In this document: piece by piece, positions 206 through 3,689 of the stretch
How positions within the stretch are numbered: the stretch's first letter is position 1
How the letters are laid out: every line of letters starts with the position of its first letter
Assembly (NCBI GenBank): GCA_963758615.1
Contig: CAVWVZ010000011.1
Span: forward strand, 302,369 to 366,368
DNA from: an uncultured Actinomycetota bacterium
GTDB lineage: Bacteria > Actinomycetota > Actinomycetes > Actinomycetales > Microbacteriaceae
Direction of reading: 5' to 3'
Length of the DNA stretch: 64,000 bases
Program-made: the position numbers and the translations under genes
Notes under the pieces: generated by a model
The model's input: only the letters and a program-made list of their open reading frames with translations
Database searches by the model: none
Told to the model about the DNA's origin: nothing

Positions 206-923
206 TCAAGGGTTGCTCTCCTCGAGTGGCTCGATGAGGGTCGGATCGGTGGTGTCGATGCGCCGCTGGTTGTTCACGCGCGGATCCACCTCGTACTCGG
301 TGATCGTCGGCGCGACCCGATCGGATGACTCGATCAGGAAGTCGACCATCGCCTGCATGCCGCCCGCGTCGAGCTTGGTGGGGTCGAGGTAGTGGTCGAC
401 CGCGTCGAGCGGGAGGTAGACCGGCATCCGATCGTGGATCTCACCGCTCGCGTCGCGCGCCTCGCGGGTGATGATCGACGTCGAGACCTCCCAGCTGCCG
501 TCGTCGAGCTTGCGCGCCGTCGAGATGCCGGCCGCCGCGAGCAGGTCGTCCTGCCCGCGCAGGAAATGCGCCTGCTTGTGACCGGGTTCACCCGTCCACT
601 CGTAGTAGCCGTGCATCGGCACGATGCATCGGCCCGACGCGAACGCGCCCTTCCACAGGCCGTTCGTGGAGACGCTCTCGATGCGAGCTGTTGAACTGCG
701 GCCGCTTCGAGTCGCGCATGAATGCCGGATGGAAGTTCCACACCGCCGGCTCGAGCCGGCGCACGAATTCACCGGTCTCGGAGTCGGGTCGCTCGCGCAC
801 GATCGGCACGGTGTCGGTCGGCGCGAGGCTGAAACGAGGCTCCCAGTCCTCGTAGTCGTTCTCGGCGTCGAACACTTCGGTCAGGTCGGTGACCTTCTGC
901 GAGACGACGAACCTTCCGCACAT
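206..923 (-). pseudogene. SOS response-associated peptidase (SRAP/HMCES family), +1 frameshift at ~689 (probably a sequencing error)
   Basis: The N-terminus MCGRF (ATG 923) is the SRAP signature. The second frame supplies ARIESV...CIVPMHGYYEW...IITREA...IHDRMPV. Removing T689 restores QFNARIES. Confidence 0.88.
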
Positions 924-998
924 GGCAACTCCTCCGAGGTGCTCCGAGTCCTCCGGCCAGCTTTCCATGCCCCGGCGACCGTCGCCACCGCCATGTCG

Positions 999-2483
999 TC
1001 AGCGTTCATCCGGGGACTGGGATTCCGGCCCGAACCAGCGCGTGAGCGCGTCGGTGAGTGATTCGCCGGTTCCGGGATCGACCCATGCCACGTGACCGTC
1101 GGGCCGGACGAGTACCGCCGTCGGAGCTGCGATCTCCCCCAGTACCGGCAATTCCCACGCGCCGGTGAACCGCACGTCGAGGGCACGCACTCGGTCGCCC
1201 CAGGGCGAGATGTCGAGGCGCCCCGGACCCGCGAAGTCGAGGAGCACCGGTCTGGCCTCGTGCAGCAGCGCGTAGACCCGAGTGGGGCCCCGCGAGGTGT
1301 CGAGGTCCAGGTCCGGCATCCGTCGTCCAAGAAGCGGATGTCCCTCCCCCAGGTCGTAGACGACGTCCAGGCCGTGGATGAGCCCGGCGATCCGTCTGCG
1401 GGCCGGGGCCGTCGTCATGAGGTCGTTGATGATCTCGTCCAGCGCAATGGTTCGTGGGTCGGCGCGCTGGAGGACCGTCTGCGCCATCGAGAGCCTGAGC
1501 GCCCGTGCTCCCGCAGGGTGCCGCTCGGCGTGGTAGGTGTCCAGCAGCGACTGCGGCGAGACGCCATTGACGACCTGGGCGAGCTTCCACCCCAGGTTGA
1601 CGGCGTCCTGGATGCCCAAGCCGATCCCCTGACCGCCGGCGGGATAGTGGATGTGCGCCGCATCGCCGGCGAGCAGCACGCGCCCGTTCCGGTACGCCGC
1701 AGCCTGGCGAGTGGCGTCGGTGAACCGCGAGATCGACGTCGCGTCGTGGACACCGAAGTCGGTTCCGAAGACCGATGTGAGCGCGCTGCTGAGATCGGAA
1801 AGCGTGGGGTCGATCGCCGGCCCGATCCGTGGTTCGGTCGTGACGACCCGATAGGTGTGCCCATCCGGCATCAGATGGAGCGCGTGCACACCTGTCTCGT
1901 CCTGGACGAAGCCGGGCGGAGGCTCCTGGGTGACTTCGACCTCGGCGATGAGGTTGCTGCGCGTCGCGTCCCAACCGGGGAACTCGATGCCGGCCGCCTT
2001 GCGGATCACGCTGCGGCCGCCGTCAGCCCCGACGAGGTACTTCGCCCGCGTCGTCTCACCGTGACCGAACGCAACGTCGACGCCGCTCTCGTCCTGGACG
2101 AAGCCGGTCACCTCGCGACCGTGCTCGACTCGGACCCCGAGCCGCTCGATCCAGTCCGCGAGGATCGGCTCGATACGGTTCTGCCACAGAGCCAGCCCAT
2201 AGGGGTGCCGTGTCGGAAAGTCGCTGATGTCCAACACGGCTGTGCCGAACCTCGCCGTCTGCGCGATCTGCCCTTCCGCGATGAACCGATCCGCGATCCC
2301 GCGCTGGTCGAGGATCTCGATGGTGCGCGAGTGGAATCCCCCTGCGCGGGACCCCGCCAGGTCCGACGTCGCGCGACGCTCCATCACCGCCACATCGATG
2401 CCCGCCAACGCGAGCTCACCGGCCAGCATCATCCCGGTCGGCCCGCTGCCCACCACGATCACCTCAGCCACAGCAACCCCCAT
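999..2483 (-). CDS. FAD-dependent monooxygenase, rifampin monooxygenase (Rox)-like / PheA-TfdB family
   Basis: GxGxxG (VVGSGPTG), ADGGRS, GDAAHIHYPAGGQG and C-terminal VRPDGHVAW motifs; Rox-like segments SRAGGFHSRTIEILDQRG, GTDFGVH and SRFTDATRQA. The start could be 2493 if the C run at 2477-2481 has one extra base. Confidence 0.85.
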   Translation of the reverse strand: MGVAVAEVIVVGSGPTGMMLAGELALAGIDVAVMERRATSDLAGSRAGGFHSRTIEILDQRGIADRFIAEGQIAQTARFGTAVLDISDFPTRHPYGLALWQNRIEPILADWIERLGVRVEHGREVTGFVQDESGVDVAFGHGETTRAKYLVGADGGRSVIRKAAGIEFPGWDATRSNLIAEVEVTQEPPPGFVQDETGVHALHLMPDGHTYRVVTTEPRIGPAIDPTLSDLSSALTSVFGTDFGVHDATSISRFTDATRQAAAYRNGRVLLAGDAAHIHYPAGGQGIGLGIQDAVNLGWKLAQVVNGVSPQSLLDTYHAERHPAGARALRLSMAQTVLQRADPRTIALDEIINDLMTTAPARRRIAGLIHGLDVVYDLGEGHPLLGRRMPDLDLDTSRGPTRVYALLHEARPVLLDFAGPGRLDISPWGDRVRALDVRFTGAWELPVLGEIAAPTAVLVRPDGHVAWVDPGTGESLTDALTRWFGPESQSPDER

Positions 2484-2519
2484 CGTCGCCCATCGACGGA
2501 ACAGCGTATTCGGCACCAG

Positions 2520-2538
2520 GGGGCTTGCGGCAAGACCC
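2520..2538. promoter_or_regulatory. Rifamycin-associated element (RAE)-like 19-bp inverted repeat overlapping a -35, with a 19-bp spacer to the -10
   Basis: GGGGCTTGCGGCAAGACCC is one mismatch from the RAE as I recall it (GGGGCTTGCGGCAAGGCCC). On the minus strand TTGCCG (2533-2528), N19, TACGCT (2508-2503) points to the monooxygenase. Confidence 0.75.
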
Positions 2539-2603
2539 CCTCGCCGCAATATCCTGAGAATGGCGAGGGCGACGGCCGCCGACGCGCAGTGCAGACTGGT
2601 CGT

Positions 2604-3689
2604 GTGAGCCAGGGCAGTCACTCATGGGTACTGCACGTCGACCTCGACCAGTTCATCGCGGCGGTCGAGGTGCTGCGGCATCCCGAACTCGCCGGCAAGC
2701 CGCTGATCGTCGGCGGCCGGGGCGATCCGACCGAGCGGGCCGTGGTCTCGACGGCCTCCTACGAGGCTCGCGAGTTCGGCGTCGGCTCGGGCATGCCGTT
2801 GCGCATCGCGGCTCGAAAGGCGCCCGAGGCGGTGATCCTTCCCGTCGACCATGAGGCGTACCTCGCGGCATCCGACGCGGTCATGGCGACCCTTCGCGTG
2901 CAGCCGGGGGCGGTCGTGCAGGTGCTGGGCTGGGACGAGGCGTTCGTCGGCGTGCAGACCGACGCGCCCGAGGACTATGCGCGTGCGTTGCAGGGAGCGG
3001 TTCTCGATCGCACCCGCCTGCACTGCAGCGTGGGCATCGGCGACACGCTCGTGCGGGCCAAGGTCGCGACGGGGTTCGGCAAGCCCCAGGGCGTGTTCCG
3101 GCTCACCGCCGAGAACTGGCTCGAGGTGATGGGGCACCGGCCGACGATCGAGCTGTGGGGTGTCGGCACGAAGATCTCGCGCCGCCTGGCCGCGATCGGC
3201 ATCACGACGGTCGCCGAGTTGGCCGCCGCCGACCCCGAAGGCGACGGCCTCGTCGCCGAGTTCGGCCCGCGTATGGGCCCGTGGTACGCCCAGCTCGGGA
3301 GGGGCGACGGCGCACGCATCGTCGACGACACCCCGTGGGTCGCTCGCGGCCACAGCCGCGAGACGACCTACCAGCACGACCTCACCGAGGTCTCGCAGAT
3401 CGAGGAGGCGATCCGCGAGCTGGCCGCCCAGGTGCTCGCGGATGTCGCAGCCGAGGGTCGCCCGGTTGTCGGACTCGCGCTCAAGGTGCGGTACGCGCCG
3501 TTCATCACCAAGACGTTCACGAAGAAGGTGGCCGAGACGTTCGACCGCGAGCTCGTGATGTCGCGCGTGATGGAGCTCGTGGCGCGCATCGAACCCGACC
3601 GGCCGGTGCGGCTGCTCGGGTTGCGGGCCGAGATGCGCATGCCCGAGGAGTCTCGTGATGGGCACACGCCGACCCGCAGTGGGTGGTGA
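2604..3689 (+). CDS. dinB: DNA polymerase IV (Y-family DinB)
   Basis: LHVDLDQFIAAVE, STASYEAREFGVGSGMP, LGWDEAF, AKVATGFGKPQG and little-finger RPVRLLGLR; probable leaderless GTG at 2604 after CAGACT. Confidence 0.93.
   Translation: MSQGSHSWVLHVDLDQFIAAVEVLRHPELAGKPLIVGGRGDPTERAVVSTASYEAREFGVGSGMPLRIAARKAPEAVILPVDHEAYLAASDAVMATLRVQPGAVVQVLGWDEAFVGVQTDAPEDYARALQGAVLDRTRLHCSVGIGDTLVRAKVATGFGKPQGVFRLTAENWLEVMGHRPTIELWGVGTKISRRLAAIGITTVAELAAADPEGDGLVAEFGPRMGPWYAQLGRGDGARIVDDTPWVARGHSRETTYQHDLTEVSQIEEAIRELAAQVLADVAAEGRPVVGLALKVRYAPFITKTFTKKVAETFDRELVMSRVMELVARIEPDRPVRLLGLRAEMRMPEESRDGHTPTRSGW

What the first reader, a model, noticed from the sequence alone, without database searches (positions are those of the whole stretch)
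999..2540. RAE-like element upstream of a divergent Rox-like monooxygenase: candidate inducible rifamycin resistance gene
Seen: GGGGCTTGCGGCAAGACCC at 2520-2538, about 37 bp upstream of the monooxygenase, containing a -35 (TTGCCG) 19 bp from a -10 (TACGCT) aimed at that gene. Established: a 19-bp RAE, recalled as GGGGCTTGCGGCAAGGCCC, marks rifamycin-inducible rox, rph, rgt, arr and helR genes in Actinobacteria. The protein shares Rox-like segments but differs in the middle substrate region (GFVQDETGVHAL) and in HYPAGGQGIG. Inference: a Rox sister-clade enzyme that would normally be annotated only as a generic FAD monooxygenase.
Basis: partly seen in the sequence, partly recalled or inferred. 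Interest (0 to 1): 0.8.

Follow-up and report, generated by a model that had tools for sequence, protein, structure and literature searches.

The report
Rifamycin-responsive element before Rox-like monooxygenase
A genuine rifamycin-associated promoter element sits in front of a flavin monooxygenase from an uncharacterised family (NCBIfam PRK06834), only about 42% identical to the known rifamycin-destroying enzyme Rox, and most members of that family carry the same element, so it is probably a second, unrecognised family of rifamycin-inducible resistance enzymes.

Summary
GGGGCTTGCGGCAAGACCC lies at 2520-2538, 36 nt before the ATG of a minus-strand FAD monooxygenase (999-2483). The same 19-mer occurs verbatim upstream of canonical rox genes. 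The element comes with the whole conserved RAE promoter module. A module profile built from 69 foreign loci finds only two sites in this 3.96-Mb genome: this one, oriented toward the monooxygenase, and one before a bona fide helR.

The enzyme is not a canonical Rox. It scores 446 bits against a cut-off of 800 on NCBIfam rif_monoox, and is 42-43% identical to RIFMO and Rox. It belongs to subfamily PRK06834 ("hypothetical protein", 772 against 625). This clade has 100/100 support and is separate from the Rox clade. Sisterhood to Rox is neither shown nor rejected.

- Of 101 other family loci, 52 carry an RAE and 30 carry a variant palindrome in the same module.
- Among canonical rox loci, 24 of 30 carry it.
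- Among other paralogues, 0 of 19 carry it.

Residues lining the rifampicin pocket of RIFMO are systematically replaced but conserved within the family. The gene is a stand-alone accessory cassette.

Rifamycin induction and inactivation are strongly predicted but untested. I rate it a new variant of a known kind, of moderate interest.

The parts
999..2483 (-). FAD-dependent (group A) monooxygenase of NCBIfam subfamily PRK06834. It is 494 aa from the ATG at 2483; the probable true start is the GTG at 2471 (490 aa, MAEVIVVG...).
   Evidence: It aligns full length to Rox 5VQB (343 bits), RIFMO 5KOW (333), OxyS (346) and PgaE (341). It scores 772 bits on PRK06834 (cut-off 625) and 445.7 on rif_monoox (cut-off 800). 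It sits in a 100/100 clade.
2503..2508 (-). -10 hexamer TACGCT of the sense (gene-directed) promoter
   Evidence: The position is the same (RAE + 11 nt) as CAGAAT or CATAAT in 71 aligned modules. TACGCT is shared by the window's subclade: L005, L009-L012 and L039.
2520..2538 (.). Rifamycin-associated element (RAE), a 19-bp palindrome GGGGCTTG-CGG-CAAGACCC. It holds the sense -35-like TTGCCG (2533-2528, minus strand) and a mirror-image TTGCGG (2525-2530, plus strand).
2545..2563 (-). Conserved upstream box of the RAE module. Read toward the gene it is CCATTCTCAGGATATTGCG, against the consensus CCACTnTCAAnnTATAGCG. Read on the plus strand it offers -10-like hexamers (AATATC at 2548-2553, TATCCT at 2550-2555) 17-19 nt from TTGCGG.
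   Evidence: The nhmmer module match spans window 2507-2568 on the minus strand, E = 1.7e-9.
2604..3689 (+). Divergent neighbour, DNA polymerase IV (dinB), with a GTG start 65 nt from the RAE. It is not part of the resistance unit, but it lies where other modules have a hairpin plus T-run.
   Evidence: NF002883, 526 bits against a cut-off of 330; no terminator here

Best explanation
The unit is a self-contained, horizontally mobile resistance cassette: an RAE promoter module driving a PRK06834-family flavin monooxygenase.

Shown:
- The module is complete, in order: upstream box, 19-bp palindrome overlapping a -35-like TTGCCG, 19-nt spacer, -10 TACGCT.
- It is oriented toward the monooxygenase.
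- It is one of only two such modules in the genome. The other drives helR.
- The same module precedes most members of this enzyme family and most canonical rox genes, but none of the other paralogues sampled.

Inferred:
- Sub-inhibitory rifamycin switches on transcription from the RAE-embedded promoter, as shown experimentally for rox, helR, rph and arr in other actinobacteria. How the RAE senses the drug is still unknown.
- The induced enzyme uses NAD(P)H and O2 through FAD to hydroxylate the naphthol or naphthoquinone core of rifamycins and so inactivates them. In this genome it would play the role that Rox plays elsewhere, alongside HelR target protection.
- Because the substrate pocket is rebuilt relative to Rox and RIFMO, the regiochemistry or the rifamycin spectrum may differ.
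For: - RAE identity: the site matches exactly, and the identical 19-mer stands at canonical rox loci.
- Whole-module homology: 71 modules aligned. nhmmer with a profile from 69 foreign modules hits only C9 (helR, E = 1.5e-16) and the window's minus strand (E = 1.7e-9) in 3.96 Mb.
- The second RAE gene is HelR: NF041254, 1256 bits against a cut-off of 750.
- The genome has no canonical Rox. The best rif_monoox hit is this gene, and the next scores 166 bits.
- RAE or variant palindrome is present at 82 of 101 family loci and 24 of 30 canonical rox loci, against 0 of 19 other paralogues.
- In an even phylum sample, 16 of 25 loci were classified positive, and 2 more have degenerate RAEs.
- The family is a clean clade, 100/100, and equals PRK06834.
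- The FAD and catalytic motifs are intact, and the protein is collinear with Rox and RIFMO over 480 residues.
- Family-specific pocket residues are highly conserved: G43 in 97 of 100 family loci in the alignment, W97 in 81, G200 in 100, R206 in 71, Q341 in 69 and I176 in 97. This argues for one conserved substrate.
- No conserved neighbour genes were found in 80 loci, as expected for a stand-alone resistance gene.
- The gene is accessory: only 1 of 30 same-genus genomes has it, and its nearest relative is in another genus.
- Literature: the RAE is necessary for rifamycin induction and has predicted new resistance genes (10.1101/2021.05.10.443488; 10.1101/2021.05.10.443476).
- Literature: a Rox homologue only 49% identical to NfRox still degrades rifamycin SV (PMC7283461).
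Against: - No expression or biochemical data exist for any member of this family.
- Most residues reported to contact rifampicin in RIFMO are not conserved. Positions 43, 74, 97, 200, 201, 206 and 341 differ systematically.
- The protein is as similar to the tetracycline and angucycline oxygenases OxyS and PgaE as to Rox.
- In the best tree its nearest clade is an RAE-less group of unknown function.
- Some close relatives lack the RAE (L006-L008 and the one same-genus orthologue, L168), so the enzyme can persist without it.
- The promoter hexamers are weak and the spacer is 19 nt. A strict consensus scan calls nothing.
Confidence: 0.65

Rival explanations
1. The promoter is a working RAE and the gene is induced by rifamycins, but the enzyme does not inactivate the parent drug. 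It might act on another ansamycin or RNA-polymerase inhibitor, on a rifamycin breakdown product, or on quinone or redox stress that accompanies exposure.
For: The rifampicin-contact positions of RIFMO are replaced: W for P97, R for P206, G for L200, V/I for R201 and Q for L341. Similarity to OxyS and PgaE equals that to Rox. The nearest clade lacks the RAE.
Against: Every RAE-linked gene characterised so far acts directly on rifamycins or on their target (10.1101/2021.05.10.443488). Rox homologues tolerate large sequence divergence and differ in substrate scope (PMC7283461). In the class sample, canonical Rox and this family never co-occur in a genome: 34 and 22 genomes of 301, overlap 0, expected about 2.5. 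That is not significant, but it fits functional replacement.
Confidence: 0.2
2. The RAE module is a hitch-hiking or decayed promoter with no present role. The gene would be an ordinary aromatic-ring hydroxylase for catabolism or tailoring that merely inherited the upstream sequence.
For: Nineteen of 101 family loci, including the closest Agromyces-type relatives, lack the module. The hairpin plus T-run found on the far side of most modules is degenerate here.
Against: The window's module still scores E = 1.7e-9 against a profile built from foreign loci, with all boxes in register. The module is retained across classes and even phyla. There is no catabolic or biosynthetic gene context. Paralogues in biosynthetic-type contexts never carry it, 0 of 19.
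Confidence: 0.1
3. The element chiefly regulates the divergent dinB (DNA polymerase IV) gene, which starts 65 nt away on the other strand.
For: The palindrome offers a mirror-image TTGCGG with -10-like hexamers 17-19 nt away, pointing at dinB. Unlike most modules, no terminator intervenes.
Against: The asymmetric flanks place the module toward the monooxygenase: 39.0 against 27.3 bits. The dinB adjacency is unique to this genome and is not syntenic in the genus.
Confidence: 0.05

Closest known systems
Rox / RIFMO rifamycin monooxygenases (S. venezuelae Rox, PDB 5VQB/6BRD; N. farcinica RIFMO, 5KOW/5KOX; R. equi Iri; NCBIfam NF033145)
   Same: Both are group A FAD monooxygenases of the same length and domain order, collinear over about 480 residues. 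H46, F256, P283, G285 and the GDAAH/GGQG motifs are kept. Both are preceded by the same RAE promoter module.
   Different: Identity is only 42-43%. The rif_monoox score is 446 against a cut-off of 800. The two form separate clades with 100/100 support. The rifampicin-contact positions 43, 74, 97, 200, 201, 206 and 341 are systematically different, and the 196-215 segment is replaced by D(A/E)TGVH(G/A)L. No activity data exist.
RAE-helR (S. venezuelae SVEN_6029; M. abscessus MAB_3189c; M. smegmatis MSMEG_2174)
   Same: The regulatory module is the same. This genome has an RAE-helR locus of its own (C9:457355-457373), so the two genes form the usual pair of target protection plus a candidate inactivating enzyme.
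   Different: The product is an oxidoreductase, not an RNAP-binding ATPase.
Aromatic polyketide oxygenases OxyS (4K2X), PgaE (2QA1) and CabE
   Same: Sequence similarity is equal to that with Rox, 341-346 bits.
   Different: Those enzymes lie in biosynthetic clusters. Paralogues of that kind in the sample never carry an RAE, 0 of 19, and they fail PRK06834 at 412 bits.
B. subtilis dual convergent-promoter rifampicin sensor of helD/pps (PMC12802891)
   Same: It is a promoter-level response to sub-inhibitory rifampicin. The RAE module also looks like two promoters sharing one core.
   Different: The arrangement there is convergent, with no palindrome. The authors state that the actinobacterial RAE mechanism is unresolved.

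Membership tests
Rifamycin-associated element (RAE) | 19-bp palindrome with arms GGGGCTTG / CAAGCCCC | tested here: met
   The site at 2520-2538 has one arm position off the ideal palindrome. The identical 19-mer stands at five canonical rox loci.
Rifamycin-associated element (RAE) | Lies in the promoter region of a rifamycin-resistance-type gene and overlaps its -35 | tested here: met
   TTGCCG lies inside the element, 19 nt from TACGCT and 36-48 nt before the start codon. The register is the same as in 71 modules. The layout matches the published M. smegmatis helD P2 (PMC10719064).
Rifamycin-associated element (RAE) | Few copies per genome, at resistance genes (regulon behaviour) | tested here: met
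   A whole-genome nhmmer scan found two sites only, helR and this gene. The pattern search agrees.
Rifamycin-associated element (RAE) | Needed for induction by rifamycins | not testable with these tools
   This needs RT-qPCR or a reporter.
Rox (NCBIfam NF033145 rifampin monooxygenase, equivalog) | Score at or above the curated cut-off (800 bits) | tested here: not met
   The score is 445.7 bits. Canonical loci score 790-926, with a gap below them.
Rox (NCBIfam NF033145 rifampin monooxygenase, equivalog) | Falls in the clade holding S. venezuelae Rox | tested here: not met
   The clades are separate, each 100/100. A union of the two clades is not rejected, AU p = 0.18.
Rox (NCBIfam NF033145 rifampin monooxygenase, equivalog) | Conserved rifampicin-contact residues of RIFMO (5KOX) | tested here: not met
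   H46, F256, P283 and G285 are kept. Positions 43, 74, 97, 200, 201, 206 and 341 are replaced family-wide. The residue list is from PMC11375879.
Rox (NCBIfam NF033145 rifampin monooxygenase, equivalog) | Hydroxylates and linearises rifamycins and raises the MIC | not testable with these tools
   Biochemistry and genetics are needed.
NCBIfam NF005303 (PRK06834 subfamily, 'hypothetical protein') | Score at or above the curated cut-off (625 bits) | tested here: met
   The window protein scores 772 bits. Family members score 746-855, canonical Rox 454, the intermediate clade 592 and another paralogue 412.
Group A flavoprotein monooxygenase (PHBH fold with C-terminal thioredoxin-like domain) | GxGxxG, DG and GDAAH/GGQG FAD motifs, with full-length collinearity to solved members | tested here: met
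   GSGPTG, GADGGRS and GDAAHIHYPAGGQG are present. Residues 7-487 align to 5VQB, 4K2X and 2QA1.

The most novel reading that the evidence does not exclude
PRK06834 monooxygenases are a second, phylum-wide family of RAE-controlled rifamycin-inactivating enzymes. They occur in about 9% of sampled Actinomycetota species, in single copy, and also on contigs assigned to Gemmatimonadota, Terriglobia and Chloroflexia. They have a rebuilt substrate pocket, and hence possibly a different site of attack or drug spectrum from Rox. Current resistance-gene catalogues miss them because curated cut-offs exclude them.

A further reading is possible. Within this family the module occurs with two different palindromes (CTTG-N3-CAAG and yTCATGAr). 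One genome uses both, on rph and on the monooxygenase. This hints that the flanking two-way promoter geometry, rather than one operator sequence, is what matters for sensing.
Probability: 0.5. Interest if true: 0.7.

Novelty: new variant of a known kind. Interest (0 to 1): 0.55.

Why it matters
Rifamycins are front-line drugs, and environmental actinobacteria are the reservoir of enzymes that inactivate them. The RAE has twice led to new resistance mechanisms (Rph, HelR).

Here it marks a whole enzyme family that annotation pipelines label "hypothetical protein" or "FAD-dependent monooxygenase", and that the curated rifampin-monooxygenase model rejects. If the family does destroy rifamycins, three things follow:
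- Resistome surveys under-count rifamycin inactivation, especially in Microbacteriaceae, Micrococcaceae, Thermoleophilia and Acidimicrobiia.
- The rebuilt pocket would show a second way of binding the ansamycin.
- The natural palindrome variants in this family's modules offer ready-made material for working out how the RAE senses the drug.

Tried and rejected
- **SaRox placement.** SaRox (WP_018809167.1) is biochemically proven and 49% identical to NfRox (PMC7283461). The RAE-less 'intermediate' clade has the right identity, 49-50%. Its nearest public homologues are from Streptomyces, Frankia and Embleya, with no Salinispora among them. The placement is unresolved.
- **Primary sources.** The original RAE paper (PMC4024899, 10.1073/pnas.1402358111) is not held. 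I derived the RAE consensus empirically from 24 canonical rox loci instead.
- **Rfam.** Nothing credible was found in 2300-2800.
- **Promoter and terminator scan.** The strict sigma-70 and terminator scan of 2380-2720 found none.
- **Synteny in the genus.** dinB and the SRAP gene are not neighbours elsewhere, so no empty site could be defined.
- **Conserved neighbours.** A search for conserved neighbour genes in 80 loci found none.
- **Second variant-palindrome module.** A search in eight genomes that carry the variant found only the monooxygenase copy.
- **Quick tree.** The 93-row quick tree was sub-optimal: a constrained tree scored 51 log-likelihood units better. Deep relationships are taken from the careful 49-row tree instead.
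- **Hairpin and T-run scorer.** My automatic scorer was crude. That feature is reported only qualitatively.
- **Structure prediction.** I did not run it, because 42-45% identity to several solved structures already fixes the fold.
Full report
**1. The observation**

The 19-mer GGGGCTTGCGGCAAGACCC is at window 2520-2538. Allowing 3 mismatches, the window holds nothing but this site read on its two strands, against 0.02 expected by chance.

The long ORF 999-2621 on the minus strand contains the monooxygenase. Homologues begin at MA(D/E)VIVVG. The start is therefore the ATG at 2483 or, more likely, the GTG at 2471, which is preceded by GGGGG.

Read toward the gene, the element is GGGTCTTGCCGCAAGCCCC. 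A strict sigma-70 consensus scan calls no promoter here. The promoter assignment rests on comparative evidence, given below.

**2. Is it a real RAE?**

The original RAE paper is not in the library. I therefore built the benchmark from data.

NCBIfam's rifampin-monooxygenase equivalog (NF033145, cut-off 800 bits) was searched in 301 genomes of the class. It gave 30 canonical rox loci. Twenty-four of these carry, within 300 nt upstream, the palindrome GGG(G/C)CTTGCGGCAAG(A/G)CCC. Five of them carry exactly the window's 19-mer.

The palindrome is embedded in a longer conserved module. In order, it consists of:
- a co-varying hairpin;
- the box CCACTnTCAAnnTATAGCGCAC;
- 2-3 nt;
- the RAE;
- 11 nt;
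- CAGAAT or CATAAT.

The window has the same parts in the same register: GCCATTCTCAGGATATTGCGGCGAGG, then the RAE, then ctggtgccgaa, then TACGCT.

A profile HMM built from 69 modules of other organisms was run over the whole 3.96-Mb genome. It found just two sites:
- one on contig C9, E = 1.5e-16;
- the window site on the minus strand, E = 1.7e-9. The plus-strand echo of the palindrome scores lower, E = 7.6e-6.

The C9 site (GGGCCTTGCCGCAAGGCCC) lies just upstream of a 732-aa gene. That gene matches NCBIfam motor_HelR at 1256 bits against a cut-off of 750.

So this genome has the classical two-gene RAE regulon, and the module at 2507-2568 points at the monooxygenase, not at dinB.

The published picture agrees:
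- The RAE is a 19-bp palindrome needed for rifamycin induction of rox, rph, rgt, arr and helR (10.1101/2021.05.10.443488; 10.1101/2021.05.10.443476).
- It overlaps the -35 of sigma-A promoter P2 of M. smegmatis helD (PMC10719064).
- As of January 2026 its sensing mechanism was still called unresolved (PMC12802891).

**3. What the enzyme is**

The protein aligns end to end with four solved enzymes: OxyS at 346 bits, S. venezuelae Rox at 343, PgaE at 341 and N. farcinica RIFMO at 333.

| Model or comparison | Result |
|---|---|
| NCBIfam rif_monoox (cut-off 800) | fails, 445.7 bits |
| NCBIfam PRK06834 "hypothetical protein" (cut-off 625) | passes, 772 bits |
| Identity to RIFMO | 41.9% |
| Identity to Rox | 42.9% |

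PRK06834 separates the groups cleanly. Family members score 746-855 bits, canonical Rox 454, an intermediate clade 592, and another paralogue 412.

The own genome has no canonical Rox. The next-best rif_monoox hit scores 166 bits.

A careful IQ-TREE of 49 sequences gave these supports:

| Group | Support |
|---|---|
| The window's family | 100/100 |
| Canonical Rox, including the 5VQB sequence | 100/100 |
| Family plus an RAE-less Streptomyces/Frankia clade (49-50% identical to RIFMO) | 97/94 |

An AU test does not reject Rox plus family as one clade: p = 0.18, and p = 0.87 on the larger quick tree. 'Distinct clade' is therefore shown. 'Sister of Rox' is neither shown nor excluded.

**4. Do orthologues keep the element?**

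Eighty orthologous loci (61-82% identity) came from one genome per species. A further 21 came from the class sample.

| Group | RAE | Variant palindrome yTCATGAr in the same module | Neither |
|---|---|---|---|
| Family, 101 loci | 52 | 30 | 19 |
| Canonical rox, 30 loci | 24 | 0 | 6 |
| Other paralogues, 19 loci | 0 | 0 | 19 |

The 52 RAE loci have CTTG-N3-CAAG with at most 4 arm mismatches.

An independent, evenly drawn phylum sample found the family in 28 of 301 genomes, always as a single copy. Among 25 newly fetched loci, 14 have an RAE, 2 have the variant, and 2 more have degenerate RAEs.

Carriers include the following groups:
- Microbacteriaceae, Occultella, Arthrobacter, Pseudarthrobacter, Rhodococcus and Pedococcus;
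- many Solirubrobacterales, Thermoleophilaceae and Acidimicrobiia;
- a few contigs binned as Gemmatimonadota, Terriglobia, Chloroflexia or Archangium.

The closest relatives L006-L008, and the only same-genus orthologue (L168), lack the element. The window's nearest relative with it is from Cryobacterium, at 82% identity and 100/100 support.

Only 1 of 30 same-genus genomes has the gene at all, and its neighbours are not syntenic. Across 80 loci no neighbouring gene is conserved. This is the signature of a mobile, self-contained resistance cassette.

**5. The active site**

I used the RIFMO residues that contact rifampicin in 5KOX, as listed in PMC11375879. RIFMO numbering was verified on the 5KOW sequence.

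The general catalytic and FAD positions are conserved: H46, F256, P283 and G285. The pocket itself is rebuilt in a family-specific and conserved way:

| RIFMO position | Window family (100 loci in the alignment) | Canonical Rox (of 30) |
|---|---|---|
| 43 | G (97) | L/R/Q |
| 97 | W (81) | P (26) |
| 176 | I (97) | L |
| 200 | G (100) | L/K/Q |
| 201 | V/I | R (19) |
| 206 | R (71) | P (30) |
| 341 | Q (69) | L/M |

The GQGIG in place of GQGLN is not a defect, because the family varies S/N/G at that position.

Strong within-family conservation argues for one conserved substrate. The differences mean that substrate identity cannot be read from homology alone. Rox homologues are known to keep rifamycin SV-degrading activity down to 49% identity and to differ in substrate scope (PMC7283461).

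**6. How it most likely works**

Shown by computation: a complete RAE module, oriented to the monooxygenase, belonging to a two-member regulon with helR, and a family-wide association of this enzyme clade with that module.

Inferred from published work on RAE genes: rifamycin at sub-inhibitory concentration induces transcription from the RAE-embedded promoter.

Inferred from enzyme class and regulon logic: the flavoenzyme oxygenates and inactivates rifamycins, complementing HelR. I put this at 0.65.

The rivals are:
- induced but acting on another molecule, 0.2;
- a relic promoter, 0.1;
- regulation of dinB, 0.05.

In the class sample, canonical Rox (34 genomes) and this family (22 genomes) never share a genome. 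About 2.5 overlaps would be expected, so this is not significant and is confounded by taxonomy. It is compatible with functional replacement.

**7. The module itself (side result)**

On the far side of the RAE, most modules have three features, read away from the gene:
- the mirror-image TTGnnn of the palindrome;
- a 17-nt spacer and a TATAnn box;
- about 10 nt later, a hairpin whose arms co-vary (GGCAAGGAG/CTCCTTGCC, GGAAAGGAG/CTCCTTTCC, GGCGGGGA/TCCCCGCC, GGAGAGCAC/GTGCTCCC), followed by a T-rich tail.

This looks like a second, outward promoter that makes a very short terminated RNA. Earlier notes of this scan reached the same idea (e1-5198623, e1-3894096). I saw it independently but did not test it further.

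In the window the hairpin and T-run are degenerate. dinB (NF002883, 526 bits) starts 65 nt from the RAE.

**8. Novelty**

RAE, Rox and HelR are known. What I could not find in the searchable literature is any recognition that a separate monooxygenase family, PRK06834, is RAE-associated, or any test of its activity. Zheng et al. included sequences down to 40% identity in a similarity network but tested none of this kind (PMC7283461).

I therefore class it as a new variant of a known kind, with moderate interest (0.55). It is a clear, cheap-to-test prediction with consequences for resistome annotation, but it is not a surprise in kind.

Noticed in passing
L013-L016, L020, L023, L024, L026, L028, L030, L033, L036, L037, L040, L054, L061, L063, L066, L067, L070, L071, L073, L075, L077, L078, L082, L084, L203, L204 (upstream of the monooxygenase): About 30 family loci, mostly Solirubrobacterales and Thermoleophilia, keep the RAE module's flanks: the TTTATA box, the CATAAT -10 and the leader cgcccgccgcaagccagaacctacgg. 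In the RAE position they carry a different palindrome, GGCCyTCATGArGGCC, in which TTG-N3-CAA is replaced by TTCATGAA or CTCATGAG.
   Followed up: partly
L183 (G608, Solirubrobacter phytolaccae, C33:26718-26736) and L084: One genome uses both palindromes in the same module layout. A perfect classical RAE (GGGGCTTGAATCAAGCCCC) precedes a gene whose N-terminus (MAYVVGLDEVDATQVELVGGKGASLGEL) looks like a rifampin phosphotransferase; I did not run a family search on it. The variant palindrome precedes the PRK06834 monooxygenase. In seven other variant-carrying genomes, no classical RAE above background and no second variant module was found.
   Followed up: partly
L017, L029, L013, L016, L024, L036, L043, L061, L070, L073, L075, L077, L078, L082, L196, L204 (between RAE and monooxygenase): A conserved 14-15-codon upstream ORF, M(R/C)VL(L/F)STYP(T/S)GVW(L/R)*, follows the RAE leader. 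Its stop overlaps the monooxygenase ATG (ATGA). It looks like the N-terminal stub of an Rgt-type glycosyltransferase, as if the monooxygenase had been spliced behind an RAE-rgt promoter. The window lacks it.
   Followed up: partly
window 2539-2604; L002 1440-1500; most modules: In most RAE modules the side facing away from the gene has a -10-like TATAnn box 17 nt from the palindrome's mirror TTGnnn. A co-varying hairpin with a T-rich tail follows, as in a micro-terminator. The genome's own helR copy has GGAGAGCAC-ccgat-GTGCTCCC-TTTTTT. In the window this hairpin and T-run is degenerate, and dinB begins at 2604.
   Followed up: partly
window 206-968, minus strand (junction near 685-704): The SRAP/YedK-like gene (MCGRF...) downstream of the monooxygenase is split between two reading frames. 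One extra base after ...CAG TTC AAC shifts QFN|ARIESVSTNGLWKGAF out of frame. This is either a pseudogene or a sequencing error.
   Followed up: partly
G320:C1:2457307-2457365, G325:C4:363369-363417, G313:C2:315925-315987, G316:C8:357008-357051, G312:C30:84826-84874, G170:C1:3304938-3304999: Short nucleotide matches (77-84%) to window 2506-2572, which is the RAE module alone, occur at other loci in same-genus genomes that lack the monooxygenase. They are presumably those genomes' helR promoters. I did not inspect them.
   Followed up: no
L005 2380-2445 (Cryobacterium tepidiphilum): The place of the upstream hairpin is taken by a tandem array of GCAGGT/CACCTG hexamers, at least 8 copies, directly next to the RAE module.
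   Followed up: no
class sample: Canonical Rox (34 genomes) and PRK06834-family genes (22 genomes) never co-occur in the 301 genomes sampled. About 2.5 overlaps would be expected, so this is not significant, and it is confounded by taxonomy.
   Followed up: partly
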